From Clostridia bacterium (lineage in GTDB: Bacteria > Bacillota > Clostridia > Christensenellales > Aristaeellaceae), in contig JAFUWR010000220.1 of NCBI GenBank assembly GCA_017471125.1, forward strand, positions 1-35,234: DNA of 35,234 bases. The letters run 5' to 3'. The notes under the pieces were generated by a model. It worked only from the letters and a program-made list of their open reading frames with translations, did not search any database and was not told the DNA's origin. Shown piece by piece: positions 3,252 to 18,771 of the stretch. Position numbers and translations under genes: made by a program. Position 1 is the first letter of the stretch. Every line of letters begins with the position of its first letter.

Positions 3252-4328
3252 TCATATCACGACCTGGTTCCTTCCCCCGTTCTTCCCCATGTACAGCTTG
3301 CGGTCGGCGCTCTCGATGATGGCGTCGACGGGGGACTGGAAGTCGTTCTCCTCCACGCCGATGGTGATGTTGATGGTGAAGTCGTGGCCCCCGAAGCTCA
3401 GCGGCATGCGGGCCACGGCCTCGCACAGGGCCTGCATCTCCTGCCCGCCGGCGTCGAGGTTCATCCCCGGCAGGAAGAAGCAGAACTCCTCCCCGCCCCA
3501 CCGGCAGACGCTGTACGCCTCGCCCGCGGCCTCCCGGAAGCGGTCGGCCAGCGCCCGCAGGGTGTAGTCGCCGCAGTTGTGGCCGTAGGTGTCGTTGACC
3601 CGCTTGAAGAAGTCGATGTCCGCGATGGCGATGCAGAAGTGCTCCTCGGGAAAGCCCACCTGGAATGCGTCGATGGCGTCCAGCATGGCGCGGCGGTTGG
3701 GCAATTGGGTCAGCGGGTCGGTGCCCGCCTCCCGGTGCAGCTCCTGGTTGTCGATGCGGAGCTGACGCTCGGCCTCCTGGAGGTCGGTGCTCAGATGGGC
3801 GCAGATCGTGGCCAATATCAGCGATATGGTGATGGAATTGAGCGATTGATAGAACATGCTGTCCGCGTTGGACAGCGCGCAGGTGGGGACGTGGACGGTG
3901 GAATACCGAAACAGCGCCATCCGCAGCCCCACCTGCGCCGCGAACCAGGCCGCCTTGAGCCACGGCGGCTCGTAGATGTTGAAGAATATGAGCACCATCA
4001 GCGGCAGCAGCAGGTGCTGCGCGCCGGTGCTCCAGCCGAAGGCGTGGACGCACCACGCCGACCAGATGGCGTTCGTCGCCGCGTACATGTACACGCAGGC
4101 CCGGGCGTTCACCCGCCCGATGGACCGCCGGCACGCCGCCGCCGCCGCGAGCATCAGAAGCGGCATCCAGTGCCAGCCGTCGCCCCGCATGCCGTACAGG
4201 AGGAAGCACAGCGGAAAGTACGCCATGAGCAGGCTGACGCCGGCCACCAGCGCGCTGCGATAGTAGCCCGGCAGGTCCTTCCCCGCCCGCGGCACCTTCT
4301 GCCTGAAAAACGCTTCGAGATGTTTCAT
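3252..4328 (-). CDS. Integral-membrane diguanylate cyclase, GGEEF variant (358 aa)
   Basis: Hydrophobic N-terminal half, then DPLTQLPNRRAM...IADIDFFKRVNDTYGHNCGD...CRWGGEEFCFFLPG. A 16-nt gap separates it from the next GGDEF gene, so the operon reads 4328 -> 1377. Confidence 0.9.
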   Translation of the reverse strand: MKHLEAFFRQKVPRAGKDLPGYYRSALVAGVSLLMAYFPLCFLLYGMRGDGWHWMPLLMLAAAAACRRSIGRVNARACVYMYAATNAIWSAWCVHAFGWSTGAQHLLLPLMVLIFFNIYEPPWLKAAWFAAQVGLRMALFRYSTVHVPTCALSNADSMFYQSLNSITISLILATICAHLSTDLQEAERQLRIDNQELHREAGTDPLTQLPNRRAMLDAIDAFQVGFPEEHFCIAIADIDFFKRVNDTYGHNCGDYTLRALADRFREAAGEAYSVCRWGGEEFCFFLPGMNLDAGGQEMQALCEAVARMPLSFGGHDFTINITIGVEENDFQSPVDAIIESADRKLYMGKNGGRNQVVI

Positions 4329-4374
4329 GGCCCGTCCGTCTTCCCCTTCGTATATGGGTATCCATATTACCTAT

Positions 4375-4403
4375 ATTATGCCAAAGATCGCGAATGTTTT
4401 CAA
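4375..4403 (-). promoter_or_regulatory. Candidate sigma-A promoter of the GGDEF-GGDEF-cobB operon
   Basis: Reverse strand: TTGAAA (complement of 4398..4403), 17-nt spacer, CATAAT (complement of 4375..4380). A GAAGGGGAAG SD precedes the ATG at 4328. Confidence 0.4.
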
Positions 4404-4548
4404 GCCCTTTTTACAATAATATTTTCAGTTTTGCGACAGATATTACAGATGTGTTTCCCAAAGGCCAGAAGCCGCCCGGCGGTCTGGTATATTATCTCCC
4501 ATCAAACTAATACACTATTAGTGTGATTATATATCTATTAGTATTGCC

Positions 4549-4590
4549 CCAAAACCAGCGCCATAACATTTGTTCTGGCGCTGGTTTTGG
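4549..4590. repeat. 42-nt near-perfect palindrome covering the first codons of pilin P1
   Basis: Left arm is ccaaaaccagcgccataaca (4549..4568). The spacer is tt. Right arm is tgttctggcgctggttttgg (4571..4590). The arms are reverse complements apart from one position (t4564). The right arm is the conserved pilin signal-peptide coding stretch, and the left arm is an inverted copy of it. Confidence 0.85.
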
Positions 4591-6023
4591 TGATGAGCCT
4601 TTTCACCAGCATGAGTGCGTTTGCGACTAGCATCAAGATTACTCCTGCCGAAGGATACAACCCAGACGATAACACTGTTGCTGAAACTTATCATGCGTAT
4701 AAGATTTTCAGCGCTGTAACTCCTTCGGGCTATGAAGGCGTTAACGATGACAATATTGAGACCGCCAAGACCTCTACGGATGTTGGTTTTCAGTATAAGC
4801 TGAGCGGGACCACCGATCCCTGGTATACTGCTGTTAATGCCTCTGGTTATTTTGATTTTAGCACTCAGTCTGATGGAAGCATCATTGCGACTTTGAAAAG
4901 CGCATATAATGCGGATGCATCTACTGCTCAAGCGATCGCTACTGCCTTAAAGCCCTATACCAAGGACGTAGATGCAACGAATGGTATCAATTGGAATTAT
5001 AACCTGACTCTCAATACAGCGCAGACAGTCGATGATGGCTACTATCTGATAGTTTCTTCTCTTGGTGAAAAGCTTGTGCTGGCTACTGCTGATATTGAGA
5101 TAACTGAGAAGAACACCTATCCTGGCGTAGACAAGACTCAGAAGGACCTTGACGACGGTAGTGCCTACATTGATGCTACCCTTGACACTCATGACAACGT
5201 AAGCGTTGCTGTTGGCGATGAGATTTCTTACCAGGTTAAGGTGACCATCCCCGCCACGATCAATGGAAACATTGTTGTGACAGATACCATGTCTGCTGGC
5301 TTGACTTTTGATAAGGATGCAGAAAACGCAATTACCGCAGACAAGGGCACCAAAGATACCGATTGGGCTATCACGTCCAGCAGCGCCCAGGGATGGGTTA
5401 TCACGATCAGCCCCACTACTGCCATGAAGGCTGCTGGCGACATCACTTTCACCTTTAAGGCCAAGGTGAACAGCAGCGCCGTTGTTGCGGATACCACCCG
5501 TAGGAACTCTGTAAAACTGGAGTATAGCAACTTCGAGCAGAACGACTATGTCCCCTTCGAACTCAAGTCTGCTGCCATCTATAAGTATGATGGAAATACG
5601 AGCACTGCTCTTGAAGGCGTTGTGTTCACCCTGAAGGAAGGGGACACTGAATTCCCGGTGTCTTACGATGCGACGAACGGTTACTATTACTATGATGCCG
5701 AAAATGGTTCCGCTGACATCTCAACCGGCGATGACGGTATGATCATTATTCGTGGCTTGGACGGTGACAAGGCTTACACCCTCACTGAGAAGACTCCGAA
5801 GCCTGGCTATAACACCCTGTCCGCTCCTGTCAGTCTGACCTTGCAGGCTATTGACTTTGAATTCACTACCAGCAATGCCGATCAGGTTGAGAACAACAAG
5901 GGCGCTGAGCTGCCCAGCACTGGCGGCATCGGCACCACCATCTTCTACGTGGCTGGCTCCATCATGGTCCTCGCTGCTGCAATCCTGCTGATCACTAAGA
6001 GGCGCATGGGTGCGAACGACTAA
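4587..6023 (+). CDS. LPXTG-anchored pilin-like / isopeptide-type fimbrial subunit P1 (start uncertain)
   Basis: Contains ...SMSAFA|TSIKITP..., YHAYKIF, GYYLIVS, an E-box-like AYTLTEKTPKPGYN, and C-terminal ELPSTGGIGTTIFYVAGSIMVLAAAILLITKRRMGAND. LPSTG lies at 5910..5924. The only starts available sit inside the hydrophobic core: TTG 4587, GTG 4590 and ATG 4593. There is no SD. Confidence 0.8.
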   Translation: MVMSLFTSMSAFATSIKITPAEGYNPDDNTVAETYHAYKIFSAVTPSGYEGVNDDNIETAKTSTDVGFQYKLSGTTDPWYTAVNASGYFDFSTQSDGSIIATLKSAYNADASTAQAIATALKPYTKDVDATNGINWNYNLTLNTAQTVDDGYYLIVSSLGEKLVLATADIEITEKNTYPGVDKTQKDLDDGSAYIDATLDTHDNVSVAVGDEISYQVKVTIPATINGNIVVTDTMSAGLTFDKDAENAITADKGTKDTDWAITSSSAQGWVITISPTTAMKAAGDITFTFKAKVNSSAVVADTTRRNSVKLEYSNFEQNDYVPFELKSAAIYKYDGNTSTALEGVVFTLKEGDTEFPVSYDATNGYYYYDAENGSADISTGDDGMIIIRGLDGDKAYTLTEKTPKPGYNTLSAPVSLTLQAIDFEFTTSNADQVENNKGAELPSTGGIGTTIFYVAGSIMVLAAAILLITKRRMGAND

Positions 6024-6120
6024 TTCCTACGTAGATCCTCGTGGATAGGATGCGTCTGGACAGGCTATAGAGCCTTTAGCAGGCCTCACAGCCTCCACAG
6101 TCGCCTCACATCCACACACT

Positions 6121-6152
6121 GCCCTGGGCCCCTAACCGGGCCTGGGGCTTTT
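6121..6152 (+). terminator. Intrinsic terminator of P1
   Basis: GCCCUGGGCCC-[CUAACC]-GGGCCUGGGGC forms an 11-bp stem with two G-U pairs, followed by UUUU (6149..6152). Confidence 0.75.
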
Positions 6153-6155
6153 CTA

Positions 6156-6763
6156 GTGTGCCGGGCATGGCACGATTCTTGCGGGTGAGAGTCCCGCCAC
6201 GGGTGGCTACCGCCAAGTGTAGCGAACCGCAAGCCGTTGACGGCGACGTCAACGGGGGAGGAAGCGGTGTAGCAAAGCCGACGAGCCTACGAACAGAAAC
6301 TGGATATAAGGCCAAACGGTGGGTAAGGTTGCTAGACAAACCGAAGCCCGAAAGGTAGACGTAAAACCGAGACGGTAAATCCAGAGGTTGTGCGGTGAAA
6401 GAATCGCGTCTTACCCCGGGAGGCCCGGTCAGCGAGGCGAAAGCCGAGTGCGAAAAAAGCGAGTGACCGGGAGTCAGCTGAGGCCATAGTAAGGAAGTGC
6501 ATTCCTGAAGGGCCTAATGTCGTGGCATTGCAGATCACTGTGAGTAAATCAACGATAGCCCGAACACGCAGCAAATGCCAAGGCGAAGGGATCGTAACCC
6601 GGAGCGGCAGGAGAGGCGGACATGCATTTTCGTTGATCTTTGCAAGCAGACTGCGAAGCAACGGACAGCAACGTTCGATACCATGCCACGATGTAGCGCC
6701 GTATACCTGACCGGTATGTACGGTGCAATGGGAGGGAGGGGGGCAAACCCCTCTCTACCCTAT
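6156..6763 (+). mobile_element. Group II intron, class C (IIC) ribozyme RNA with no intron-encoded protein (608 nt)
   Basis: The 5' end is GUGUGCCGGGCAUGG (6156..), followed by GGGUGAGAGUCCC (6183..6195). Many GNRA-capped stems are present. Domain V lies at 6696..6726: GCGCCGUAU/ACC-loop-GGU/AU bulge/GUACGGUGC, with a CGC triad as in IIC introns. Domain VI lies at 6730..6760 with bulged A6757, 7 nt from the 3' end ...CCCUAU (6763). A hairpin loop GCUAGACA holds UAGA (6333..6336), complementary to the last exon bases UCUA (6152..6155), which I read as the EBS1-IBS1 pairing. From memory, the sequence closely resembles the Oceanobacillus iheyensis IIC intron. No ORF longer than 86 aa lies inside and none looks like a reverse transcriptase. 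Confidence 0.85.
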
Positions 6764-6857
6764 TGCCTTTGTGTTGTCTTAACTGACTTTGATGAAAAAT
6801 ACAATGTAAATAATATCCCCAGGGAGTGTGGTTAACCCCCCAGGGATCGTTGTGTTC

Positions 6858-6890
6858 CTACGCCAGCACCATTGTGATCATGGCTGCGGC
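6858..6890 (-). pseudogene. Degenerate fragment of a pilin sorting-signal 3' end
   Basis: The reverse strand gcc gca gcc atg atc aca atg gtg ctg gcg tag reads AAAMITMVLA*. This resembles AAAILLITKRRMGA(N/G)(D/E)* with an internal deletion. It lies immediately 3' of P2. Confidence 0.4.
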
Positions 6891-6906
6891 GTTGGGCAGT
6901 TGCTGC

Positions 6907-7393
6907 TTATTCGCCAGCACCCATGCGGCGCTTGGTGATCAGCAGAATCGCAGCGGCCAGAACCATCAGAGAACCAGCAACGTAGAAGATGGTGGTGCCG
7001 ACGCCGCCGGTGCTGGGCAGGGTTGCACCAGTATAGTTGATCCAGAACCAAATACCATCCGGGAACAGCAGCATAGGTGGTCGTGGTGCCGTCCAGAGTC
7101 GCTACCTCAGTACCGAGGTTGTCCTTGTTGGCGGCAGCCCAAGCACGAGCGGTGGTAATAGCATCAAGAGTAGCCTCAGGAACGGGGCCCGTCAAGCCGC
7201 CCGGATAGCTGGAACCATACTGAACATCAGTCAGCTTACCAGCATTGTCCCCAGTGCCAGGAGTACCGGTGAAAATCTGATAAACTTTATAGGTATGAGT
7301 CACAGCATCATTGTCCCTATTAACAGTGATGTTGTAGGTCACCGGATCATCAGCAAAAGCCGGGATCATGGAAGCGATCATCATCGCCGCCAA
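6907..7393 (-). pseudogene. Pilin P2: internally deleted, frameshifted pilin gene
   Basis: The N-terminal frame reads (L)AAMMIASMIPAFADDPVTYNITV..HTYKVYQIFTG...AAVPGWYLVLD. Near 7038..7043 the reading frame changes, and ...INYTGATLPSTGGVGTTIFYVAGSLMVLAAAILLITKRRMGAGE* (stop 6907..6909) continues in a different frame. The roughly 400-aa core found in P1/P3/P4 is missing. The upstream ATG conserved in P3/P4 is ATA here. Confidence 0.75.
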
Positions 7394-7482
7394 AACCAGC
7401 GCCAGAACAAATAATCTGGCCTCGCTATCACCACACTACATATAGACACTACATCCGCCCCATCAGTATCACGATTTTCCCC

Positions 7483-7511
7483 TTGACAAACCCCTCCAAC
7501 CATGCTATTAT
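7483..7511 (+). promoter_or_regulatory. Consensus-like sigma-A promoter M1 with no obvious downstream gene
   Basis: TTGACA (7483..7488), 17-nt spacer, TATTAT (7506..7511). It shares architecture and flanks with 10456..10484 and 15141..15169. It points away from P2 and antisense into the DUF3800 gene. Confidence 0.5.
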
Positions 7512-7718
7512 GCTTATAGAAGATGCTCTGTCTTTTCCGAAGGCTTGCGTTCCACGCGGGGTATTTATGTAGGAAGGATGGAGCATTTTCTGTACCCTAT
7601 CATCACCCTTATCAGCCCCATCAGTGTGTACATTGTTGCACCGGCGCATCGCCATGAATTATTTGCTTCCTCAGCATAAAGAATGCACGACACGCAATGT
7701 GCCAAACACACGCTCCGT

Positions 7719-8531
7719 TTAGTCCGTTCCTTCTCCTCCCTGACCACGGAAGTCATGGCTACTCTCAAACAACCAATGCTCATACGGGCTCTCCCAGTGA
7801 GGATTCTCAAATCCCCTAAATCCTGTGGACATCTTGATATTGAACGCGGGCAGCATCGTTTGTATTTCCTGATTGATGTACTTGTACAGCTTCTCTTTCG
7901 CAATCGTCCGCTTCCCGCGCGTCCGCGCGCCGTCAGGCTTCACCAGGTGCAGATCATTCATTCGGAACTGCATCGCGCCGAGGATGATGTCGGTGCATTG
8001 CAGGATCACATGATCGTGGGAGCAGACTTCCGCGATATCTTCCCGGCGGATATGAACCCGGCTGCCGGCATAGTCTCGCGTGTTTGGCAGGTTCAACAGA
8101 TAGTCTTTGAAGCGTTCCCGCTTCTCTCGCGTGTCAGGTAGTTCGTCCAGATAGATGCGAACGAAGCACTCTTCCGGCGTGGTCCTCAATCCGAAACTGT
8201 GCTTGAGGAACTGGTAGTAGAGCTTGAAATACTTGTCCCGGTTTTTGTCGATGGGGGCTGAGCTCGTTTCCCGAAACATAATGCGGAAGCGAATCTTCCC
8301 GGCTCGGATAAAATCGAAGAATAGATGGATGAGTTCCTCATACTTCTCCAAATAGTTCGGTGTGACCTTGATCCACTTTACTTCACGGAGGAGGTTGAGT
8401 TCCGTTTTTTTATTATTTAGAGCGGTTGTAATCTCCTCCAGATATTGGAAAGGGAGAATGCAGCCTCCGAAGAAATCGCTGTATAGCGTGCCCTTGTCCA
8501 GGGATTCGTCGCAGTAGATAACGTATTCCAC
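7719..8531 (-). CDS. DUF3800-family protein (about 270 aa)
   Basis: I take the N-terminus as (V->M)EYVIYCDESLDKGTLYSDFFGG, matching my recollection of the DUF3800 opening (hydrophobic-Y-x-DES). GTG at 8531 has an AGGAG SD 7 nt upstream. The track ORF begins further upstream at TTG 8591, which I consider less likely. Confidence 0.65.
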   Translation of the reverse strand: MEYVIYCDESLDKGTLYSDFFGGCILPFQYLEEITTALNNKKTELNLLREVKWIKVTPNYLEKYEELIHLFFDFIRAGKIRFRIMFRETSSAPIDKNRDKYFKLYYQFLKHSFGLRTTPEECFVRIYLDELPDTREKRERFKDYLLNLPNTRDYAGSRVHIRREDIAEVCSHDHVILQCTDIILGAMQFRMNDLHLVKPDGARTRGKRTIAKEKLYKYINQEIQTMLPAFNIKMSTGFRGFENPHWESPYEHWLFESSHDFRGQGGEGTD

Positions 8532-8562
8532 AGTTTGGCTCCTGGTGTGAATAATTTCCCTG

Positions 8563-8591
8563 ATTATACCATGATAGGTGACGGAGCGCAA
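8563..8591 (-). promoter_or_regulatory. Promoter of the DUF3800 gene
   Basis: Reverse strand: TTGCGC (complement of 8586..8591), 17-nt spacer ending in TGG, then TATAAT (complement of 8563..8568). This is an extended -10. Confidence 0.5.
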
Positions 8592-8650
8592 GAGTGTGGG
8601 GAAGGGAAAATCGGTGGGGGGATTGCCAAAACCAGAGCGACAAAACCCTC

Positions 8651-8700
8651 AAAACGGGGACATCCCTGCCCCGGAGCGGTTTGCCCCAGAACAGGGATGT
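8651..8700 (-). terminator. Probable terminator of P3
   Basis: The reverse strand ACATCCCTG...CAGGGATGT forms a 9-bp stem, with an alternative inner CGGGG/CCCCG stem, followed by GTTTTG. The 3' flank (CTACG..TGGA..ATGCGT..AGGCT.TAG.CCT..CTCATCCACACA) is homologous to the 3' flank of P1 (6027..6120). Confidence 0.45.
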
Positions 8701-8763
8701 GTGGATGAGAATTCAGGCTAAAGCCTTGTTCTCACGCATTGCTTCCAGCTTATCGCGTAGCGA

Positions 8764-10404
8764 TTAGTCGTTGGCACCCATGCGACGCTTGGTGATCAGC
8801 AGGATGGCAGCAGCCAGAACCATGATGGAACCAGCCACATAGAAGATCGTGGTGCCGATGCCGCCGGTGGAGGGCAGGGTAGCGCCAGACTTATTCTCGA
8901 TCTGGCCAAAGATCTCGCCAGAGCCGAGTTCATCGGTAGTTCCGTCGATCTTAGTGTCAACAGTCTCAGTACCACTGCCATCGGCCTTATCACGAGTAAA
9001 GGTAAACTCACCGCCGCTGGGAGAGGCAGCATAACCAGTCGGGCCATTCAAGGCAGTGATGCTGTATACACCAGTAGTGCCATCAGCTGCAATGGTACGG
9101 GTGATGGAGAAGCTCAGAGGATCCATCGTGTTATATCCGTCAGGGGTAGTGGTCTCAACGAGGAGGTAGTCGCCAGCATCCAAGCCATCGAACTCAAAGT
9201 TAGTAACGCCAGTGATTTCCTGATCAACGGTGTAATAATCCGTATAATCAGTCAGAGTGCAAGCATCACCATACCGGTCATTAGTATCGTCAGCACCAGA
9301 AGCAAGCTTCTTATACAGGGTGAAACCAGCACCGGTCTTCGCTTCATAACCAGATTTGTCAGCCTTGGCTACGATCTTGTCTACATCCATCTTGTAGGTG
9401 AACACGACCGTAGTATCGTCGGGAGTGTCGCCAGTCTCTTCACCGCCCTGATCGTCATTGGGGTTGTTAGAGTATTCGACATGGCTGGTATTGGGGTTGC
9501 CAGGGTTGCCATAGACAACACCAGTACTATTCAGGGTAGAAGTGTAGTACACGCTGATAACAGAACCAGCTGCGACTTCGCCAATTTCCTTCAAATTGGC
9601 AAAGACGACTTCGAAGGCGCAATCATCATCAAGGCCAGTAGTTACAACCTCGAACCCTTCGGTGATCTCTGTATCACCAACATAAACCTTCACTGTGCTA
9701 GCATTGAAGGTCAGACCCTCACACTGCTCATCATGAAAGGTCAGATGATAAATCTTATAATTATCATACTGGTCGGTGATGGTAGCAGTCAGTTTAAAGG
9801 GAACCTCATCGCCGATGTCGTAGTCAGCATAATCACCGTAAGTCAGCCCCTTCAGATCGCTCAAGTCAATGTCAGTCGAGCTATCATTGTTTTCAGCAAC
9901 ATCCTTAGTAGAGGTGGTGGTATTTGCCTTACGAGTGATAGTGACATCACCCACAACCTTCACGATGTACAGGGAATACTCGTCACCCTCACCAGGCGTG
10001 AAACCAGAGGCATCCTTGATAAGATAATAGCCAGCCGGGACACTCGTCAAAGAAGCTCCAGCAGCAACGCCAGCCGCATAAGTACTACCATCAGCATAGG
10101 CATTCACGGCAACAGCAGTCTCTTGCGCGTCATTATCCATAGCGGCTAGGGTATCAAGCACATTTTGAGCAACAACGCCAGTGTTACTACTGCCAGAACC
10201 CCACTGTACATTAGACAAAACACCATCATACAGATCACCAGTAAAAATCTGATAGACATCATATGTGTGGGTAAAACCGGTCGAATCCGTAGGCATAGTC
10301 AGAGTAAAAGTCTGAGCATCAGCCATGGCCGGGATCATGGAAGCGATCATCATCGTCGCCAATACCAGCGCCAGAACAAAAAATCTGGCCTCGCCATCAA
10401 TCAA
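8764..10404 (-). CDS. LPXTG-anchored pilin-like protein P3 (546 aa from the TTG start)
   Basis: Reads (TTG)MIDGEARFFVLALVLATMMIASMIPAMA|DAQ..., then HTYDVYQIFTGD, GYYLIKD, an E-box DYLLVETTTPDGYN, and C-terminal TLPSTGGIGTTIFYVAGSIMVLAAAILLITKRRMGAND. No SD precedes the TTG. Confidence 0.88.
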   Translation of the reverse strand: MIDGEARFFVLALVLATMMIASMIPAMADAQTFTLTMPTDSTGFTHTYDVYQIFTGDLYDGVLSNVQWGSGSSNTGVVAQNVLDTLAAMDNDAQETAVAVNAYADGSTYAAGVAAGASLTSVPAGYYLIKDASGFTPGEGDEYSLYIVKVVGDVTITRKANTTTSTKDVAENNDSSTDIDLSDLKGLTYGDYADYDIGDEVPFKLTATITDQYDNYKIYHLTFHDEQCEGLTFNASTVKVYVGDTEITEGFEVVTTGLDDDCAFEVVFANLKEIGEVAAGSVISVYYTSTLNSTGVVYGNPGNPNTSHVEYSNNPNDDQGGEETGDTPDDTTVVFTYKMDVDKIVAKADKSGYEAKTGAGFTLYKKLASGADDTNDRYGDACTLTDYTDYYTVDQEITGVTNFEFDGLDAGDYLLVETTTPDGYNTMDPLSFSITRTIAADGTTGVYSITALNGPTGYAASPSGGEFTFTRDKADGSGTETVDTKIDGTTDELGSGEIFGQIENKSGATLPSTGGIGTTIFYVAGSIMVLAAAILLITKRRMGAND

Positions 10405-10455
10405 TTACTAATAGATGCTTCATATGCACTATTAGTATCAGATTCCCTATCCCTC

Positions 10456-10484
10456 TTGACCAATCCTCCGCCCTGTGGTAATAT
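10456..10484 (+). promoter_or_regulatory. Promoter M2 of the Rpn-like gene, divergent from P3
   Basis: TTGACC (10456..10461), 17-nt spacer, TAATAT (10479..10484). This is followed by the conserved GTTGTGGAAG and a 7-bp hairpin (TGTGGAA...TTCCACA). Confidence 0.55.
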
Positions 10485-10571
10485 TAAGTTGTGGAAGGAT
10501 CCATTTCGGACGTTTTCCACATGTGCGCGATTACGCATCAGATTTGTTGAAAGGTCAGGGGGTGATACTCC

Positions 10572-11438
10572 ATGCCACGCAAGCGTACCCGGAAGGCCAA
10601 CCGCAAGGCAAAGGATTCTGTATTCGTGGATCTGTTCCACCAGAAGAAGTATTGCCTACAGTTGTTTAAGTCCCTTCATCCGGAGATGGACGTCACTTCT
10701 TCTGACATCAAGACGATCACGCTCAAGCACATCGTCGTGGACCGGCAATACAATGATCTGGGCATTCTCGTCCAGGACAAGCTCATCATCTTGATCGAGG
10801 CTCAGTCCAAGTGGAGCGATAATATTCTGCTTAGGCTTTGGTTTTATGCATCTGACACCTACCTGACGCAGATCAAGAACAATCCTGCCTGGGACGTACA
10901 TGATACGAAGGCTATTCCACTTCCGCCACCGGAGTTTGTAGTGATTTACACAGGAAACCGAGATATCCCGCCGACCGTCAGCTTGAGAGAGCACTTCTTT
11001 AAGAATGCTAATGTGCCAATCGACTTGATCGCGAAGGTAATCCGGCAGGAAGGCAACGATATCATCGGCCAGTACATCACATTCTGCCATGTGTTCGATG
11101 ACATGGTGAAGAATTACGGACAGACCCGGAAAGCGGTGGAAGAAACGATAAGGATTTGCAGGGACAAAGGCGTCCTTGCAGAATATCTCCGAGACAGAGA
11201 AGAGGAGGTAATCGAAGCTATGGTTATGTTGTTTGATCAGCAGACTGCTGTTGAGCAGTACGGGGACAGAAGAGAGGCTGAGGGAGAGGCGAAAGCAACC
11301 GCCGCTGCCACCGAACGCGACAAGCGGCGTGTGTTAAAGCTGTTTGCAAAGGGAAACAGTCCGGAAGAGATCGCCGACGACATGGAGTTGGATTTGAAAT
11401 TGGTCAAAGAATGGCTTGCGGCACCCTCGATGGCGTGA
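10572..11438 (+). CDS. Rpn-family recombination-promoting nuclease / PD-(D/E)XK putative transposase (288 aa)
   Basis: Contains KDSVFVDLFHQKKYCLQLFKSLHPE and NDLGILVQDKLIILIEAQSKWSDNILLRLWFYASDTY, which I read as the D...E-x-Q nuclease core typical of this family. The C-terminal tail KGNSPEEIADDMELDLKLVKEWL looks HTH-like. The SD is AGGGGGTGA (10557..10565). Confidence 0.8.
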   Translation: MPRKRTRKANRKAKDSVFVDLFHQKKYCLQLFKSLHPEMDVTSSDIKTITLKHIVVDRQYNDLGILVQDKLIILIEAQSKWSDNILLRLWFYASDTYLTQIKNNPAWDVHDTKAIPLPPPEFVVIYTGNRDIPPTVSLREHFFKNANVPIDLIAKVIRQEGNDIIGQYITFCHVFDDMVKNYGQTRKAVEETIRICRDKGVLAEYLRDREEEVIEAMVMLFDQQTAVEQYGDRREAEGEAKATAAATERDKRRVLKLFAKGNSPEEIADDMELDLKLVKEWLAAPSMA

Positions 11439-11445
11439 GTGATGA

Positions 11446-11489
11446 CCACACTGATGGGGCTGAAAGATGCCTGTCAGTGTGGTTTTCTT
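11446..11489 (+). terminator. Intrinsic terminator after the Rpn-like gene
   Basis: CCACACTGA (11446..11454) pairs perfectly with TCAGTGTGG (11474..11482) across a 19-nt loop. TTTTCTT follows. Confidence 0.7.
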
Positions 11490-11555
11490 ATATTACTAAT
11501 AGAGCGGAAATAAGACTTACAGAGATGCGGAAATGGCAGGGTCAGATTTTTTCTC

Positions 11556-13313
11556 GTGGCGCTGGTGCTGGCAGTCATGATGCTGCTGGTCAGCGTAAGC
11601 GCATTAGCTGCTACAATTGAAAATAAGACCGACCATTCTTATGATGCCTATCAGATTTTTGCAGGAACTCATGTTGCTGGTGAAACCACAGGCAAACTGG
11701 GTGTTACTGGTTGGGGTAGCGGTATTAATGGAGATGCGTTTCTTACCGCATTGAAATCAAACTCTGCTTTTAATAAGACTACCGGTACAGGCGAGGATGC
11801 TGTAACTGAGAATGTTTTCAAAGACGCTAAGACTGCCGCTGATGTCGCTTCTATCCTTGGTGATAATGCCACTGATAAGAGTGATTTTGCAAAGGCTTTT
11901 GCGCTTGAAGCTGAGAAGCATCTCAAGACAGAAAAAACTGCCATCGCAGCTGGTGCTACAACTGCTGAACTCCTGGGCTATTATCTGCTTGTGGACACTC
12001 AGACTCTTGAAGATGGAGATGCCAAGAACCTTTCTCTGTTGGAGGTAACCGGCAAAGAGAAGTTCACTATCGAGAAGAAGTATGATAAGCCCTCTCTCGA
12101 TAAGGACATCATTGAGGATGATGCAAATGTCGAGGCAGCCGACAAGAATATCGGTGATACTATTACTTACGAGCTTCGTGGTACTTTGCCTTCCAACCTT
12201 GGAGACTTCACCAAGTATTACTTTGAGTTCTCCGATACTCTGTCTAAGGGCCAAGCGTATCAGGGCGATATAAAGGTCTACTTGAACGAAGTTAAGGCAA
12301 AAAATGACATCACTGGTAAGTTCACCATCAAGCATTCCACTGATAAGGGTGCTACTGACAAAACTGACGGTGCCTCTGCTACTGAATTCTCGATCAAAAA
12401 TGAGGACATTTTGGCTGCTTCCACTGGTATTGCCGGCGTGAAGGGCAGTGATGTTATCATTGTTCGCTATACCGCGATTCTGACAAAGGACGCTACCGTT
12501 GGGTCTACGGGCAACGAGAACAAGGCCAAGTTGACTTACTCCAGCAATCCGAACTATAATGGTGATGGCGAAAAGAAGGATACCCCCGAGGACAAGACCC
12601 TTGTTTTCACCTATGAACTGGATACCACCAAGGTTGACGGCGCTGAAGTTACCGTTCCCGATGGCGCGACCTATTATAATGCAGACGATACTGCTGCTGC
12701 TGACGCCTCTGAAGCCGCATATGCAACTGCCGACGGCGTGACGTATACCAAGGATGCTGCTGGTAAATGGCACAAGGCTATCGAAGGCGCTGAGTTCAAG
12801 CTGTATCGTATGAATGGAACCGACAAAGAATATGTCGTGCTTGAAGCCAGCTCTACCAAGGTTAAGAGTTGGACGAAGACCATTGGGGAAGCAACTGTTT
12901 TGACTTCTGCTGCAAACACGGGTCTGTTTGAAGTGTCTGGCTTGGATGCCGGTACTTACTACCTGGTTGAGACCAAGGCTCCCACTGGTTACAACCTGCT
13001 TAATGATCCTGTGAAGGTTGTAATTGCTGCGACTATCACTGGCTCAACCACTGGTACTGTGGGCGCGGCTGATGATCATGATAAGGTTGCTCCCGCTTTG
13101 ACCGCTCTCACTATCGCGGTAAACGATGGCACTGCCCAGAATGGTAAGTTAGCTACTGGTGAAGTCAAGGATACCATCGCCAATAATGGCGGTAATGTCC
13201 TCCCCTCTACCGGCGGCATCGGCACGACGATCTTCTACGTGGCTGGCTCCATCCTGGTCCTGGCTGCTGCGATCCTGCTGATCACCAAGCGTCGCATGGG
13301 TGCCAACGACTGA
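11556..13313 (+). CDS. LPXTG-anchored pilin-like protein P4 (585 aa from GTG 11556; true start unclear)
   Basis: Reads (GTG)ALVLAVMMLLVSVSALA|ATIENK..., then HSYDAYQIFAG, GYYLLVD, KPSLDKD, an E-box TYYLVETKAPTGYN, and C-terminal VLPSTGGIGTTIFYVAGSILVLAAAILLITKRRMGAND. In frame upstream the sequence is stop-DLQRCGNGRVRFFL with no start codon and no SD. Confidence 0.88.
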   Translation: MALVLAVMMLLVSVSALAATIENKTDHSYDAYQIFAGTHVAGETTGKLGVTGWGSGINGDAFLTALKSNSAFNKTTGTGEDAVTENVFKDAKTAADVASILGDNATDKSDFAKAFALEAEKHLKTEKTAIAAGATTAELLGYYLLVDTQTLEDGDAKNLSLLEVTGKEKFTIEKKYDKPSLDKDIIEDDANVEAADKNIGDTITYELRGTLPSNLGDFTKYYFEFSDTLSKGQAYQGDIKVYLNEVKAKNDITGKFTIKHSTDKGATDKTDGASATEFSIKNEDILAASTGIAGVKGSDVIIVRYTAILTKDATVGSTGNENKAKLTYSSNPNYNGDGEKKDTPEDKTLVFTYELDTTKVDGAEVTVPDGATYYNADDTAAADASEAAYATADGVTYTKDAAGKWHKAIEGAEFKLYRMNGTDKEYVVLEASSTKVKSWTKTIGEATVLTSAANTGLFEVSGLDAGTYYLVETKAPTGYNLLNDPVKVVIAATITGSTTGTVGAADDHDKVAPALTALTIAVNDGTAQNGKLATGEVKDTIANNGGNVLPSTGGIGTTIFYVAGSILVLAAAILLITKRRMGAND

Positions 13314-13330
13314 TCGACAGACCCATTTTT

Positions 13331-13364
13331 CCCCGGAGAGCAAGTCAAGCCCTCCGGGGCTTTT
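13331..13364 (+). terminator. Intrinsic terminator of P4
   Basis: CCCCGGAG (13331..13338) pairs with CTCCGGGG (13352..13359), followed by C and TTTT. Confidence 0.7.
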
Positions 13365-13380
13365 CATTAAGGAGGTTCTT

Positions 13381-13635
13381 ATGGCATATCCAGACACTAC
13401 CCATATCGCGAATGAATACAATGCTCTGCTGGAAGAGTTGCGCAAGGAGTATAATGAGGGTCATATGCCCGGCTACCATTCTTTTAAGACCCGATTTCGA
13501 TCGCATGACCTTGATTTATTAATGCGAAAAATCAACGGGAGTCCGTTTTTTATCGGTGAGGCAAGAAGATATGGCGCATTGATAGAAGTCAATGTCAGAT
13601 GGGATAAACTAATGAAGCACTTTACAAACAACTGA
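13381..13635 (+). CDS. Hypothetical small protein (84 aa)
   Basis: A strong AAGGAGG SD (13369..13375) sits 5 nt before the ATG at 13381. The protein is MAYPDTTHIANEYNALLEELRKEYNEGHMPGYHSFKTRF...; I recognise no family. The track ORF starts earlier (13300) without an SD. Confidence 0.55.
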   Translation: MAYPDTTHIANEYNALLEELRKEYNEGHMPGYHSFKTRFRSHDLDLLMRKINGSPFFIGEARRYGALIEVNVRWDKLMKHFTNN

Positions 13636-13706
13636 CCATTGGAGTTTTCATCTGTGCCAAAGATGTCAAACCACAAAGCTCACACGATACATACGAGCAT
13701 GCTCCC

Positions 13707-13784
13707 GTAGGGGCGGCGTTGCGCCGCCCGCCAGATACACCGATGCGAAATATACTCGGGCGGGCGCCGCAACGGCGCCCCTAC
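13707..13784. repeat. GC-rich REP-like palindromic element (copy 1)
   Basis: GTAGGGGCGGCGTTGCGCCGCCCGCC (13707..13732) and GGCGGGCGCCGCAACGGCGCCCCTAC (13759..13784) are inverted 26-mers with 2 mismatches. Each arm is also a hairpin on its own (GGCGGCG-TTG-CGCCGCC). A partial extra arm lies at 13811..13832. Confidence 0.8.
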
Positions 13785-14008
13785 ATCCCTGGCTCGGGTG
13801 ACCTGTATCAACGGCGTTGCGCCGCCCGCCCGGGGACCTCATCCGACCCGCTCCGCGGGCCACCTTCCCGATAGCAGTCGCGCTACTGCCCATAGGGCAG
13901 GCGCGACCAGCCCGCCCTGGGATTCTGCGAATCCGGGCGGCGCTGCCGCCGCTTCCGCTTCGCGAAGTAGCGGCGGTGCGTAAAGGGGGAAGGCAATATC
14001 AAGCATCC

Positions 14009-14032
14009 GTAGGGGCGATGCCCTCATCGCCC
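14009..14032. repeat. Second REP-like hairpin subtype
   Basis: GTAGGGGCGATGCCCTCATCGCCC has an 8-bp stem GGGCGATG/CATCGCCC. It shares the GTAGGGGCG head with the other elements. Further GC-rich inverted repeats lie at 13905..13975. Confidence 0.6.
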
Positions 14033-14068
14033 GTCGTATACGCCGTCACACCATTGGTTTATTCTCTA

Positions 14069-14097
14069 TTGACACCTTTACCGCGCTGTGCTAAACT
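14069..14097 (+). promoter_or_regulatory. Promoter of the second Rpn-like gene
   Basis: TTGACA (14069..14074), 17-nt spacer, TAAACT (14092..14097). Confidence 0.55.
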
Positions 14098-14126
14098 ATA
14101 CTCACACCGAGCAAGGAGAAGCCGCT

Positions 14127-14936
14127 ATGCCCCACTACCTCTCATCCCGCGAGGAGAAGATCGACGCCGCGCGTCGCATGAATCTGTTTTCCGATTTGTT
14201 CATGTCCGTGGCGCTGGATGATCGGCTCGCCTGTGAATACGTTCTTCGTATCCTAACGGGCATCCCATCCTTGGCGGTGCTTGAGATGCGCACACAGTAC
14301 CGTGTGAATAACATGATCGCCCGAGATGTCATTTTTGACGTTTTGGCTCAGGATGAAACGGGAAGGCTATACAACATTGAGGTGCAACGAACGGATACGC
14401 TCGATCACCCACGCCGCGTGCTTCTCTATGCGTCTGAATTGATAACTGAGTTTATGCGGAAGGGAAGCTCTGTGGACGATACGCCGGAAGTCTACATCTT
14501 TTATTTGAGTGAGACAGACATCTTAAAGACCGGTAAAAGTATTGCATGGGTAGAAAAGCGGTTGGCTGGGGAACCGTATTGCGACGGCCTTCACATCGCA
14601 TTTGCCAATGCGGAGGTGGATGACGGAAGCGAAGTGGCGGGGCTGATGCGGTATTTCAAAACCGCCGACCCGGATGATCTATCGCATGGCTCTCTTTCAC
14701 GGCGCATACACCTTTTGAAAAAGGAAAAGGAGGGCGAGGAACTCATGTGCCAGATCTCAGATAAGTTTGTTCAGGAAGGAAAGGTCCAGGGAAAAGTCGA
14801 AAGCATCGTCAATCTTACCGCCAAGATGTCCATCTCTGATGAAACTGCTATGGAATTGGTCGGTGTTGATGAAAAGGAACGTCCCCTTTATGCTGCATAC
14901 GTGAAAGAGATGAGGCGTGCAATGGCGACGGCTTAG
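14127..14936 (+). CDS. Rpn-family / PD-(D/E)XK nuclease-family putative transposase, second subfamily (269 aa)
   Basis: An AAGGAGA SD (14113..14119) precedes the ATG at 14127. The protein reads MPHYLSSREEKIDAARRMNLFSDLFMSVALDD...ARDVIFDVLAQDETGRLYNIEVQRTD...RRVLLYASELI, carrying the NL..D.LF and D..D..G..YN.E.Q signatures. The C-terminus has a QEGKVQGKVE-type repeat. Confidence 0.78.
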   Translation: MPHYLSSREEKIDAARRMNLFSDLFMSVALDDRLACEYVLRILTGIPSLAVLEMRTQYRVNNMIARDVIFDVLAQDETGRLYNIEVQRTDTLDHPRRVLLYASELITEFMRKGSSVDDTPEVYIFYLSETDILKTGKSIAWVEKRLAGEPYCDGLHIAFANAEVDDGSEVAGLMRYFKTADPDDLSHGSLSRRIHLLKKEKEGEELMCQISDKFVQEGKVQGKVESIVNLTAKMSISDETAMELVGVDEKERPLYAAYVKEMRRAMATA

Positions 14937-14948
14937 TGGTAAAAAACG

Positions 14949-15009
14949 CTGCCCCCTCCACCGGCTCGCCCTGCTGATCACCAAGCGTCGCATGGGCGCC
15001 AACGACTGA
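14949..15009 (+). pseudogene. Relic of a pilin sorting-signal end (P5 remnant)
   Basis: ctgccccctccaccggc is LPSTG coding with one extra c. It is joined to ctgctgatcaccaagcgtcgcatgggcgccaacgactga (LLITKRRMGAND*). The hydrophobic segment has been deleted. The last 39 nt differ from the P4 end (13274..13313) at one base. Confidence 0.75.
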
Positions 15010-15092
15010 TACTCGTTGCAACCGCCCCATTCGGAACGTGCGTGACGGCGACCGAGGCCGAATAGCCCCATGATCGACGTCCCGCGCACCCT

Positions 15093-15123: not shown

Positions 15124-15140
15124 TTGCGTCTTCTCCCCTC

Positions 15141-15169
15141 TTGACCCAAAACTCGCTCTGTGGTACCAT
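15141..15169 (+). promoter_or_regulatory. Promoter M3 of the esterase-GTPase operon
   Basis: TTGACC (15141..15146), 17-nt spacer ending in TGG, then TACCAT (15164..15169), then GTCGTGGAAG as found after M2. Confidence 0.5.
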
Positions 15170-15306
15170 ATAGTCGTGGAAGCTGTCAGAGAACCTTTTC
15201 TTCTACTTTGGACGCATCCCCTCTCGCGACGGATGGATCAAGAGCTATTTGAAAGCCACGCGGAGTAGACAGGAGAAATGTTCAGGAACGACAAGAAGGG
15301 TGCACG

Positions 15307-18251: not shown

Positions 18252-18256
18252 ATGCC

Positions 18257-18423: not shown

Positions 18424-18429
18424 ACCTAT

Positions 18430-18765: not shown

Positions 18766-18771
18766 AGGCGC

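What the first reader, a model, noticed from the sequence alone, without database searches (positions are those of the whole stretch)
4549..15009. Family of LPXTG pilin cassettes with conserved ends, divergent cores, doubtful start sites and recombination scars
Seen in the sequence. The family comprises P1 (4587..6023 +), P2 (6907..7393 -, internally deleted), P3 (8764..10404 -) and P4 (11556..13313 +). End-fragments lie at 6858..6890 and 14949..15009, and possibly at 8622..8645. All copies share the 5' signal-peptide coding stretch tt(t)gttctggcgctggt(t/a)ttgg (P4 is more diverged). All share the same C-terminal roughly 35 aa, STGGIGTTIFYVAGSI(M/L)VLAAAILLITKRRMGAND. P3 and P4 are identical over the last 40 nt before the stop. 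P1 and P3 also share about 100 nt of 3' flank, and P2 and P3 share their 5' flank. The mature regions are highly diverged: only YxxYQIF, GYYL and the E-box remain. None of the four has a Shine-Dalgarno, whereas neighbouring genes do (13369 AAGGAGG, 14113 AAGGAGA, 10557 AGGGGGTGA). Only P3 has an in-frame start (TTG) upstream of the hydrophobic core. P1, P2 and P4 have none. The window contains no sortase. Two Rpn-family recombination-promoting nuclease genes are interleaved with the cassettes. Inference: this looks less like a normal sortase-pilus operon. It looks more like a store of exchangeable pilin variants, following pilE/pilS-style gene-conversion or cassette-turnover logic, recombining through the conserved ends. 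An expression site, a sortase, or both may lie elsewhere in the genome.
Basis: partly seen in the sequence, partly recalled or inferred. Interest (0 to 1): 0.8.

Follow-up and report, generated by a model that had tools for sequence, protein, structure and literature searches.

The report
Start-less sortase-pilin cassettes with shared ends
A gut or rumen Gram-positive bacterium keeps several very different surface-pilus subunit genes that share near-identical ends but lack their own translation starts, and related genomes show the cores being swapped through those ends, which points to a recombination-based way of changing the pilus not yet described for this pilus type.

Summary
Window 4.5-15 kb carries three intact backbone-pilin ORFs of the sortase type (P1, P3, P4). 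It also carries one broken copy (P2) and one clear 3' remnant (14949-15010). The copies share a 5' box (TTGTTCTGGCGCTGG...) and the last ~115-150 nt, but their cores are only 26-30% identical. P1, P2 and P4 have no in-frame start. P3 has only a TTG with no Shine-Dalgarno. There is no sortase in the window.

The family extends well beyond this window. About 20 members from related metagenome loci keep 85-96% identical ends around cores that are at most 50% identical. Some relatives have a normal Shine-Dalgarno plus ATG (MTKNFKL...). Many others have lost the start in different ways, yet all keep long open frames. At orthologous loci the core is cleanly replaced, with breakpoints inside the two conserved ends. 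One relative joins the start-bearing upstream flank to the downstream flank of a start-less locus.

My best reading (about 0.45) is an archive of silent pilin cassettes exchanged by homologous recombination. The expression site and the sortase would lie elsewhere.

Against this, eight assemblies of this island are collinear and 100% identical, and no switching was seen. A frameshift at the T6 run and a role for the Rpn-like genes are not supported.

The parts
4542..6023 (+). P1, an intact backbone-pilin ORF with no start upstream of the hydrophobic core. The frame opens at 4542 and the first start-type codon is TTG at 4587. It has a type-a leader, in which the canonical ATG position is AAA.
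4549..4590 (.). A 20+2+20 nt near-perfect palindrome made of the P1 5' box and its inverted copy. As RNA it forms a -30.5 kcal/mol hairpin that covers the first codons.
   Evidence: (I15)
6121..6148 (+). Intrinsic-terminator-like hairpin after P1.
6907..7393 (-). P2, a dead copy. It keeps the 5' ~200 nt and the 3' ~125 nt, has lost about 1.15 kb of core and is frameshifted. Its leader reads ATA...TTATTT.
8625..8643 (-). Possible remnant of a 5' box downstream of P3. Its significance is borderline.
   Evidence: (D6)
8764..10404 (-). P3, an intact pilin ORF. Its only in-frame start is TTG at 10404, with no Shine-Dalgarno. That TTG sits at the position of the ATG of relative P0271 (type-b leader).
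10572..11438 (+). Rpn1-like gene. It is a weak PD-(D/E)XK match with a C-terminal HTH. It recurs immediately upstream of pilin cassettes in L146.
11445..11490 (+). Strong hairpin followed by a U-run (terminator) between Rpn1 and the P4 leader. It is conserved upstream of type-b cassettes in L146 and L138.
11514..13313 (+). P4, an intact pilin ORF. The frame opens at 11514 and the first start-type codon is GTG at 11556, inside the hydrophobic core. ATGs at 11525 and 11533 are out of frame.
13274..13314 (+). The 3' end of P4, forming the proximal copy of a 41-nt direct repeat that brackets the cargo segment.
   Evidence: D4
13381..14936 (+). Cargo segment between the repeats: orf84, an 80-nt REP-like palindrome and the Rpn2-like PDDEXK_2 gene (14088/14127..14936). 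The same module occurs in L146 at 87-93% identity.
14949..15010 (+). Pilin 3' remnant. It holds an LPSTG-coding trace, an internal deletion, and then the last 41 nt at 98% identity to P4.
4223..14194 (.). Block with no SNP in seven other assemblies, while the flanks carry 98 SNPs. G+C is 48-56% here, against 62-71% in the flanks.

Best explanation
The four genes belong to a large, multi-locus family of orphan backbone pilins of the SpaA/SpaH sortase type, found in uncultured rumen or gut Clostridia. In this family a very divergent core is framed by two conserved DNA arms. The 5' arm is the coding for the hydrophobic part of the signal peptide. The 3' arm is the last ~115-150 nt, which code for the LPSTG sorting signal. 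Homologous recombination through the arms, reciprocal or by conversion, moves whole cores between loci and strains.

In this window the copies are archival. P1 and P4 have lost the Shine-Dalgarno, the start codon and the charged n-region. P1 is locked behind a hairpin and P4 sits behind a terminator. P2 is dead. P3 keeps only a TTG with no Shine-Dalgarno and may be weakly expressed in place. Full expression of a core would need recombination onto a start-bearing locus (Shine-Dalgarno + ATG ACG AAG AAT TYT AAA...), such as the one seen in relatives. That locus and the pilin sortase would lie elsewhere in the genome.

Shown: the anatomy, the conserved arms, the loss of starts with frames kept open, and cassette replacement plus a flank-swapped recombinant in relatives. 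Inferred: that the same exchange operates within this genome, and that it changes the expressed pilus.
For: - **Arms conserved at the DNA level.** The 3' ends are 83-96% identical between copies whose cores are at most 50% identical, median 32%. In the last 27 codons, 70-85% of codons for identical residues are themselves identical, against about 45% in the cores. The Ala codon of the 5' box is GCG in 13 of 14 copies, although GCG makes up 15% of Ala codons in the cores.
- **Starts lost independently while frames stay open.** Canonical relatives have GGAAGGAAG-N6-ATG ACG AAG AAT (L129, L130, L131, L149). At that ATG position P1 and L146-581 have AAA, L133 and L136 have ATT, and L128 and L144 have AAG. 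In type-b leaders the corresponding codon is TGT, TGC or TGT in P2, P4 and L138B; L138A has a shorter leader and also lacks a start. The same codon is TTG in P3 and ATG in P0271. Every start-less copy except P2 keeps a 480-660 codon frame, with 17-64 stops in each other frame.
- **Cassette replacement with breakpoints in the arms.** This is seen for L133 against L136 and for L129 against L131.
- **A flank-swapped recombinant.** L149 has an upstream flank 98% identical to the start-bearing L129 and a downstream flank 99.7% identical to the start-less L133 over 6.2 kb.
- **Insulation.** A terminator hairpin precedes P4 and is conserved in L146 and L138. P1 carries a hairpin at its 5' end. No promoter-like site lies upstream of any of the pilins.
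- **More cassette arrays.** They occur in the same samples as this organism: L138/L139 and L146-148.
- **Not a normal operon.** The nearest homologue of P4 lies in an operon with two sortases, whereas the window has none.
Against: - Eight assemblies of this island are collinear, have no indels and are 100% identical from 4223 to 14194. No switching is visible here.
- The P1, P3 and P4 cores occur with no other N-terminus among about 15 billion proteins, and their next relatives are 47% identical. No donor-recipient pair has been sampled.
- The expression site and the sortase of this organism were not found. My one genome-collection scan was wasted.
- The recombinants in relatives come from different samples. 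They could reflect exchange between strains, or a deletion between tandem loci, rather than programmed switching within a cell.
- P3 (TTG) and P0271 (ATG) show that some type-b copies may be translated in place.
Confidence: 0.45

Rival explanations
1. Decaying paralogues. A horizontally acquired island carries redundant pilin genes that have been cut off from their sortase operon and are being lost. Start codons and leaders mutated first. The long frames are still open only because the decay is recent, or because gene conversion from functional relatives keeps repairing them.
For: - The island has low G+C and holds junk: a truncated group II intron, the P2 wreck, and end fragments.
- It has no sortase, no promoter-like sites and no Shine-Dalgarno.
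- It is invariant across strains, as expected for a recent arrival.
- The start lesions are heterogeneous, as random decay would produce.
Against: - Leaders and n-regions of start-less copies have diverged to near saturation. For example, P1 matches the canonical first seven codons at about 8 of 21 nt (read by eye from the sequences).
- Over the same history at least nine start-less cores from four or more loci kept 480-660 codon frames, against only P2 and one fragmented copy in L138 that are broken. Loss of expression signals without loss of frame points to selection on the frame.
- The arms remain homogenised across species.
Confidence: 0.2
2. The genes are expressed where they are, from unconventional initiation. 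P3 would start at TTG 10404, P4 at GTG 11556 (MALVLAVMMLLVSVSALA) and P1 at TTG/GTG/ATG 4587-4593. Translation would be SD-independent or leaderless. The family would then simply be a set of co-expressed or alternatively regulated pilins, polymerised by a sortase encoded elsewhere.
For: - P3's TTG lies exactly where relative P0271 has ATG, nine codons before GTT CTG GCG. P0271 also lacks a good Shine-Dalgarno.
- In-frame R or K residues precede the hydrophobic core in all type-b leaders.
- P4 from the GTG would still carry a 17-residue hydrophobic stretch and an AxA cleavage site.
Against: - P1 translated from 4587 would have a 13-residue presequence with no n-region.
- Type-a leaders have lost the lysines of the canonical MTKNFK.
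- In-frame stops lie 4-13 codons upstream of the core in every copy.
- A terminator lies upstream of P4 and a -30.5 kcal/mol hairpin lies over P1's first codons.
- Other genes in the window do use a Shine-Dalgarno, and so do canonical family members.
Confidence: 0.2
3. Frame restoration at the T6 run. In P3 and P4 an ATG (ATG GCN RGG NCA GAT TTT TTG/C) lies in the +1 frame, and T_TTT_TTG/C is a -1 slippery heptamer. Programmed frameshifting, transcriptional slippage, or slipped-strand phase variation (T6 to T7, or T5 for P4's MRKWQGQIF start) would switch the pilins on.
For: - The geometry fits in both P3 and P4.
- Homopolymer switching of sortase pili is known in Bifidobacterium breve (PMC9187656, found).
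Against: - The feature is not conserved in the family. L138A reads GATTTGGTG and L138B reads GATGCGGTG.
- The upstream ATG is ATA in P2, L138A and L138B. The spacing from it to the core is 20 nt in most copies but 22 nt in L138A.
- Relative P0271 has the ATG directly in frame.
- All eight assemblies have T6 in both genes.
- A run of six T is short for slippage (my own knowledge).
Confidence: 0.03
4. A site-specific inversion system of the shufflon or Mycoplasma vsa type. A dedicated recombinase would act on the conserved 5' box, and the P1 palindrome would be a full site. Inversion would place different cassettes behind one start-bearing stub.
For: - Cassettes lie in both orientations: P1 +, P2 -, P3 -, P4 +.
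- The 5' boxes are short and highly conserved, and there is a 20+2+20 palindrome at P1.
- In M. pulmonis vsa the silent genes likewise lack their 5' ends (my own knowledge).
Against: - There is no tyrosine or serine recombinase in the window or in L133, L136, L138 or L146.
- No start-bearing stub exists in the island.
- The arrangement is fixed in eight assemblies.
- In relatives the breakpoints spread over about 30-140 nt of the arms rather than falling at one site.
- The 3' arm is just as conserved, which an inversion site would not need.
Confidence: 0.04

Closest known systems
Neisseria pilE/pilS pilin antigenic variation
   Same: Both have several loci of silent pilin copies without promoter, ribosome-binding site or start. 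Conserved blocks frame the variable sequence, there is a conserved 3' element, and expression comes from one complete locus after homologous recombination.
   Different: Neisseria uses a type IV pilin, not a sortase-assembled one. pilS copies are partial and about 80-90% identical to pilE, and short segments are converted. Here the copies are almost full length (only about 6-9 codons are missing) and the cores are 25-50% identical, so only whole-core replacement through the two arms is possible. No G4 or sRNA initiator was seen. Conversion within one genome was not shown.
Campylobacter fetus sap S-layer cassette system
   Same: Both have full-length, highly divergent surface-protein ORFs clustered in both orientations. 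They share a conserved 5' region used for RecA-type recombination, and only one copy is expressed because the expression signal is unique (my own knowledge).
   Different: In sap the unique element is a promoter on an invertible segment, and every cassette keeps its own start codon. Here the Shine-Dalgarno, the ATG and the n-region are missing and both ends are conserved. No invertible promoter segment was found in the window.
Mycoplasma vsa/vsp/vpma site-specific inversion families
   Same: Both have silent surface-protein genes that lack the 5' end, with the recombination site inside or next to the signal-peptide coding.
   Different: Those systems need a linked Xer-like or HvsR recombinase and a fixed short site. 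Neither was found here, and the breakpoints in relatives are spread over the arms.
Canonical sortase-pilus operons (SpaA, SpaH, RrgB type) and their known phase switches
   Same: The protein family and architecture are the same. The closest homologue lies in a tip / backbone / sortase / minor pilin / sortase operon. Known on/off switches of such pili are a G-tract in Bifidobacterium breve (PMC9187656) and leader-peptide attenuation in Streptococcus gallolyticus (PMC3894217).
   Different: Here the pilins are orphans without a sortase and occur in many copies. They lack starts and are interleaved with defence or toxin-antitoxin type genes. The T6 run does not behave as a switch.
Polymorphic-toxin and VARTIG-like hypervariable modules (PMC8416519)
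   Same: Both have a conserved frame around a hypervariable Ig-fold surface protein shaped by recombination between genomes. The downstream cargo genes vary, and displaced end fragments lie downstream.
   Different: There is no toxin or immunity pair here. The variable part is the whole mature pilin rather than a C-terminal tip. This is an analogy of layout only.

Membership tests
SpaA/SpaH-type sortase-assembled backbone pilin | Ig-like isopeptide domains (GramPos_pilinBB, SpaA fold, RrgB_K2N_iso_D2) | tested here: met
   P1, P3 and P4 match the Pfam domains with E from 1e-8 to 1e-21. P3 scores 65 bits on TIGR04226, above its cut-off of 30. P3 scores 67 bits on the whole-protein model NF033902, below its cut-off of 95.
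SpaA/SpaH-type sortase-assembled backbone pilin | C-terminal LPXTG sorting signal, membrane span and basic tail | tested here: met
   All copies end in LPSTGG...ILLITKRRMGAND. They match Pfam Gram_pos_anchor.
SpaA/SpaH-type sortase-assembled backbone pilin | E-box (YxLxETxAPxGY) | tested here: met
   The motif reads YTLTEKTPKPGYN in P1, YLLVETTTPDGYN in P3 and YYLVETKAPTGYN in P4 (alignment).
SpaA/SpaH-type sortase-assembled backbone pilin | Complete Sec signal peptide with its own start codon | tested here: not met
   P1, P2 and P4 have no in-frame start before the hydrophobic core. P3 has only a TTG with no Shine-Dalgarno.
SpaA/SpaH-type sortase-assembled backbone pilin | Linked class C sortase | tested here: not met
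   There is no Sortase Pfam hit among the called genes and no TLxTC motif in the six frames. The locus of homologue P0329 has two sortases.
SpaA/SpaH-type sortase-assembled backbone pilin | Pilin-motif lysine (YPKN-like) | not tested
   Candidate sites exist (P1 TYPGVDK, P4 KYDKPSLDK), but no model or structure was used to test them.
Silent-cassette gene-conversion system (pilE/pilS, vls type) | Donor copies lack a promoter, ribosome-binding site and start but keep open frames | tested here: met
Silent-cassette gene-conversion system (pilE/pilS, vls type) | Conserved blocks flank the variable part and are homogenised at the DNA level | tested here: met
Silent-cassette gene-conversion system (pilE/pilS, vls type) | A complete expression locus in the same genome | not testable with these tools
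   Only relatives show one: L129, L131 and L149.
Silent-cassette gene-conversion system (pilE/pilS, vls type) | Observed transfer of donor sequence into the expression locus | tested here: inconclusive
   In this island there are no variants in eight assemblies, and the three cores occur with no other N-terminus. In relatives there is core replacement and a flank-swapped recombinant, but these come from different samples.
Site-specific inversion system (shufflon, vsa, hin type) | Linked recombinase gene | tested here: not met
   None is present among the genes of the window or of L133, L136, L138 or L146.
Site-specific inversion system (shufflon, vsa, hin type) | Alternative orientations in the population | tested here: not met
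   All seven other contigs are collinear with the window.
Programmed -1 frameshift or homopolymer phase variation | Slippery heptamer or tract conserved among homologous leaders, or tract-length polymorphism | tested here: not met
   The heptamer is absent from L138A, L138B and P2, and the upstream ATG is lost in three leaders. The run is T6 in all assemblies.
Rpn family recombination-promoting nuclease | Score above the curated family cut-off | tested here: not met
   On TIGR01784 the two genes score 19.3 and 28.8 bits, against a cut-off of 52.1. On Pfam PDDEXK_2, 14088-14936 scores 46 bits (cut-off 27.4) and 10572-11438 scores 20.4 bits. They are distant PD-(D/E)XK relatives only.

The most novel reading that the evidence does not exclude
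This is the first recombinational cassette system for sortase-assembled (Gram-positive) pili. A commensal Clostridia lineage would keep dozens of start-less, full-length backbone-pilin cores at several loci. It would swap them, through a signal-peptide arm and a sorting-signal arm, onto a single start-bearing locus. That would change the whole shaft of the pilus, for evasion of phage or of host antibody. The cassettes would travel together with defence or toxin-antitoxin cargo genes bracketed by 41-68 nt repeats of the pilin 3' end.
Probability: 0.35. Interest if true: 0.85.

Novelty: new variant of a known kind. Interest (0 to 1): 0.62.

Why it matters
Variation of surface filaments by silent cassettes is a textbook strategy of Gram-negative pathogens and spirochaetes. 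For sortase-assembled pili the switches I know of are on/off only: homopolymer slippage and leader attenuation.

A library of start-less pilin cores with two recombination arms would show that gut and rumen Firmicutes can replace the entire pilus shaft. It would also explain why orphan pilin genes are scattered away from sortases.

Finally, it would tie pilus diversity to phage or immune pressure, because the cassettes sit among defence-type genes. The idea can be tested directly on existing rumen metagenome reads.

Tried and rejected
1. **Genome-collection scan with the 5' box.** The pattern was too common. As a result the organism's own genome, its sortase and its expression site could not be searched.
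2. **Protein search with the 45-residue C-terminus.** It returned only short fragments and was useless for N-terminus statistics. It did lead to L138, L144 and L145.
3. **-1 frameshift or T-run phase variation.** It is attractive for P3 and P4 but was rejected by comparison with L138A, L138B, P2 and P0271, and by the invariant T6.
4. **Group II intron trans- or alternative splicing** (prompted by PMC3919590). The intron piece at 6237-6513 has only D1-D4 matches and no domain V hit. It lies after P1's terminator and faces the 3' side of P2. I treat it as incidental.
5. **Read-through from Rpn1 into P4.** The two are in the same frame, but two stops and a terminator lie between them.
6. **Rpn as the recombinase of the system.** The cargo genes differ between loci, and family membership is weak.
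7. **Search for a sampled donor-recipient pair.** None was found among 21 family members; the highest core identity is 50%.
8. **dN/dS from population SNPs.** This was impossible because the island has no SNPs.

Full report
**What is in the window**

Positions 4.2-15.1 kb form a block of lower G+C (48-56%) between flanks of 62-71%. The block holds four paralogues:
- P1: frame open from 4542, ends at 6023, + strand.
- P2: 6907-7393, - strand.
- P3: 8764-10404, - strand.
- P4: frame open from 11514, ends at 13313, + strand.

P1, P3 and P4 match GramPos_pilinBB, the SpaA fold and the LPXTG anchor. P3 also matches the isopeptide fimbrial domain TIGR04226. They are backbone pilins of the sortase-assembled kind.

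Their cores are 26-30% identical. The ends are far closer:
- The 21-nt box TTGTTCTGGCGCTGGTTTTGG occurs four times, against 0.01 expected.
- The last 105-149 nt are 83-87% identical.
- The last 36 residues are identical apart from one M/L difference.
- P3 and P4 are identical over the final 40 nt.

P2 keeps only the two ends and is frameshifted. A real 3' remnant lies at 14949-15010. The proposed fragments at 6858-6890 and 8622-8645 are at or below the chance level. The P1/P3 3'-flank similarity covers about 45 nt, not 100.

**Start sites**

In P1, P2 and P4 an in-frame stop lies 4-13 codons before the hydrophobic core, and no ATG, GTG or TTG follows it. P3 has TTG at 10404. None has a purine-rich Shine-Dalgarno, whereas the Rpn1-like gene and orf84 do. 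No promoter-like site precedes any pilin.

A strong hairpin with a U-run lies between the Rpn1-like gene and the P4 leader (-27.5 kcal/mol, z -5.8). P1's first codons lie inside a 20+2+20 palindrome (-30.5 kcal/mol, z -6.5).

There is no sortase. None of the called genes has a Sortase domain, and no TLxTC motif occurs in any frame. The closest homologue of P4 (44% identical) sits in a classical operon with two sortases. The giant LPXTG adhesin at 19233-34901 has a different sorting signal. The shared tail is therefore specific to the pilin family.

**Population data for this island**

Seven metagenome contigs that carry the same Rpn1-like protein are collinear with the window and have no indel. 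They differ from the window at 98 positions in the flanks, but at none between 4223 and 14194. The island is therefore invariant, which fits a recent sweep or a recent transfer. It shows no inversion, no chimera and no change of the T6 runs.

The three cores occur in the 15-billion-protein collection only as alternative start calls of the same genes. Their next relatives are 47% identical.

**The family outside the window**

A scan of metagenome contigs with the 3'-end pattern gave ten loci. Look-ups of protein hits gave more loci. Several come from the same samples as the window's organism: L138/L139 and L146-148.

About 21 members have mutually distinct cores (at most 50% identical, median 32%). 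Their 3' ends are nevertheless 85-96% identical at the nucleotide level.

Conservation of the arms goes beyond what the protein requires:
- In the last 27 codons, 70-85% of codons for identical residues are themselves identical, against about 45% in the cores.
- The Ala codon of the 5' box is GCG in 13 of 14 copies, against 15% GCG usage in the cores.

The leaders fall into three kinds.
- **Canonical.** L129, L130, L131, L149 (P0267) and P0316 have GGAAGGAAG, six bases, then ATG ACG AAG AAT TYT AAA CTT (MTKNFKL).
- **Type a.** P1, the 581-residue pilin of L146, L133, L136, L128 and L144 keep the register, but at the ATG position they have AAA, AAA, ATT, ATT, AAG and AAG. Most of them have also lost the lysines.
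- **Type b.** In P2, P3, P4, L138B and P0271 the codon nine positions before GTT CTG GCG is TGT, TTG, TGC, TGT and ATG. L138A has a shorter leader, with a stop six codons before the core and no start. An in-frame stop immediately precedes this stretch in every copy except P0271, and P4's stop lies four codons further upstream.

P3's TTG therefore corresponds to a real ATG in a relative. P1 and P4 are truly start-less.

Every start-less copy except P2 keeps a frame of 480-660 codons, while the other two frames carry 17-64 stops each.

**Evidence for exchange through the arms**

- L133 and L136 are the same chromosomal place, next to a peptide ABC transporter. Their flanks are 98% identical and their 1.5-kb cores are unrelated. 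The similarity ends inside the signal-peptide coding and resumes about 120 nt before the stop.
- L129, L131 and L149 share one start-bearing upstream flank at 98% identity and carry three different cores.
- L149 has that upstream flank, but its downstream 6.2 kb is 99.7% identical to the downstream flank of the start-less L133 locus. This is a recombinant between a start-bearing and a start-less locus, formed by inversion, deletion or a long exchange.
- An 80-nt REP-like palindrome is shared by the window, L149, L150 and L136. These organisms are therefore relatives of the window's organism.

**Interpretation**

The simplest account is a cassette family. The signal-peptide arm and the sorting-signal arm serve as homology for recombination. 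Whole cores move between loci and strains. Many copies are kept without expression signals.

Expression signals were lost repeatedly and in different ways, while frames stayed open and arms stayed homogenised. This argues for archival copies that are selected when they reach a start-bearing locus, rather than for plain pseudogenes. I put this reading at about 0.45.

It remains inference for this genome. No switching was seen, no donor-recipient pair was sampled, and neither the expression locus nor the sortase was located.

**Rivals**

- Recent decay of a transferred island: about 0.2.
- In-place expression from TTG or GTG starts, most plausible for P3: about 0.2.
- A frameshift or phase switch at the T6 run. 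In P3 and P4 the ATG GCN RGG NCA GAT TTT TTG/C stretch places an ATG in the +1 frame and forms a slippery heptamer. I rejected it because the heptamer and the ATG are absent in L138A, L138B and P2, the spacing varies, P0271 has the ATG in frame, and T6 is invariant.
- A site-specific shufflon. It lacks a recombinase, a stub and any alternative arrangement.

**The interleaved genes**

The gene at 14088-14936 passes the Pfam PDDEXK_2 threshold. The gene at 10572-11438 does not. Both fall far below the NCBIfam Rpn cut-off.

An Rpn1-like gene followed by a terminator and a pilin is a recurring module. In other loci, however, the genes between cassettes are DUF2971, HEPN-like, MNT+HEPN, Phd/YefM, DUF3791/DUF3990 or DUF3800.

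The common theme is cargo of the defence or toxin-antitoxin type, often bracketed by the pilin 3' end and a 41-68 nt repeat of it. In five relatives the repeat starts at the same position, equivalent to 13247. I cannot explain that bracket. It may be a distal recombination arm that lets the cargo travel with a core.

**Comparison with known systems**

- In logic it is closest to pilE/pilS and to the C. fetus sap cassettes. It differs from pilE/pilS in pilus type, in near-full-length donors and in replacement of whole cores. It differs from sap in lacking start codons and in using two arms.
- It is not a member of the site-specific inversion families.
- Known switches of sortase pili are on/off only (PMC9187656, PMC3894217).
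- I found no paper describing silent cassettes for sortase pilins.

I rate it a new variant of a known kind, with interest 0.62.

Noticed in passing
window 4223-14194 against the flanks: Seven other assemblies have no SNP across the whole island, but 98 SNPs in the flanks. The SNPs cluster right at the borders, in the 5' part of GGDEF gene 3252-4328 and from 14195 inside the Rpn2-like gene, where 15 of 17 are synonymous. This looks like a recent island-specific sweep or transfer with recombination breakpoints at the edges.
   Followed up: partly
window 7522-7587 (+), with a promoter-like site at 7483-7511: There is a DUF3800-VIII RNA match (71.5 bits against a gathering score of 40.2), directly preceded by a near-consensus promoter (TTGACA-17-TATTAT with TG). 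It is convergent with the DUF3800 gene at 7719-8591 (-) and divergent from P2.
   Followed up: no
window 6237-6513 (+): A group II intron fragment matches only the D1-D4 models. It has no domain V hit and no intron-encoded protein. It sits just after the P1 terminator (6121-6148), as class C introns do, and is probably dead.
   Followed up: partly
window 13707-13784, 18299-18377 and 34956-35034; also L149 159-237, L150 and L136 33-60: An 80-nt G+C-rich palindromic REP-like element (GTAGGGGCGGCGTTGCGCCGCCCGCC...GGCGGGCGCCGCAACGGCGCCCCTAC) occurs three times in the window, once inside the island. It is shared with related metagenome loci, which marks them as relatives.
   Followed up: partly
window 10451-10497 and 15136-15182: A 47-nt promoter-like block is duplicated at 74% identity (CCCTCTTGACC...TGTGGTAATAT / ...TACCAT). 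One copy lies upstream of the Rpn1-like gene. The other lies at the right edge of the island, upstream of the hydrolase gene at 15307.
   Followed up: no
window 18241-19153: A segment of about 0.9 kb that holds a 233-residue ORF with no family match is replaced by about 54 nt in contig L002. It is an insertion/deletion polymorphism between strains.
   Followed up: no
window 19233-34901: A 5222-residue LPXTG protein has eight DUF7601 repeats, a DUF5979 domain and a SpaA-fold domain. Its sorting signal (LPSTGGVGTKPF...KKRKEY) differs from that of the pilin family. It may be a pilus tip adhesin, and the window ends 330 nt after it.
   Followed up: partly
L129, L133, L136, L137, L149 and L146; window 13274-13314 and 14970-15010: A single cargo gene (DUF2971, HEPN-like, an unknown gene, or the Rpn2-like gene) is repeatedly bracketed by the pilin 3' end and a 41-68 nt direct repeat of it. 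The repeat starts at the same position in five relatives. The mechanism is unexplained.
   Followed up: partly
L144 2457-8593: A family member with AAG at the start position, broken in this long-read contig, lies directly downstream of two large serine recombinase genes and a phage-type lysin. An integrated element may have its attachment site at or near a pilin cassette.
   Followed up: no
L149 about 320-350, and 1-1811: The start-bearing locus of relatives is preceded by 1.8 kb with no called gene. A near-consensus promoter (TTGTCA-17-TAAAAT with TG) lies about 1.45 kb upstream of the ATG. Rfam finds nothing there in L129, the only copy of this flank that was scanned. This may be a long regulatory leader.
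   Followed up: no
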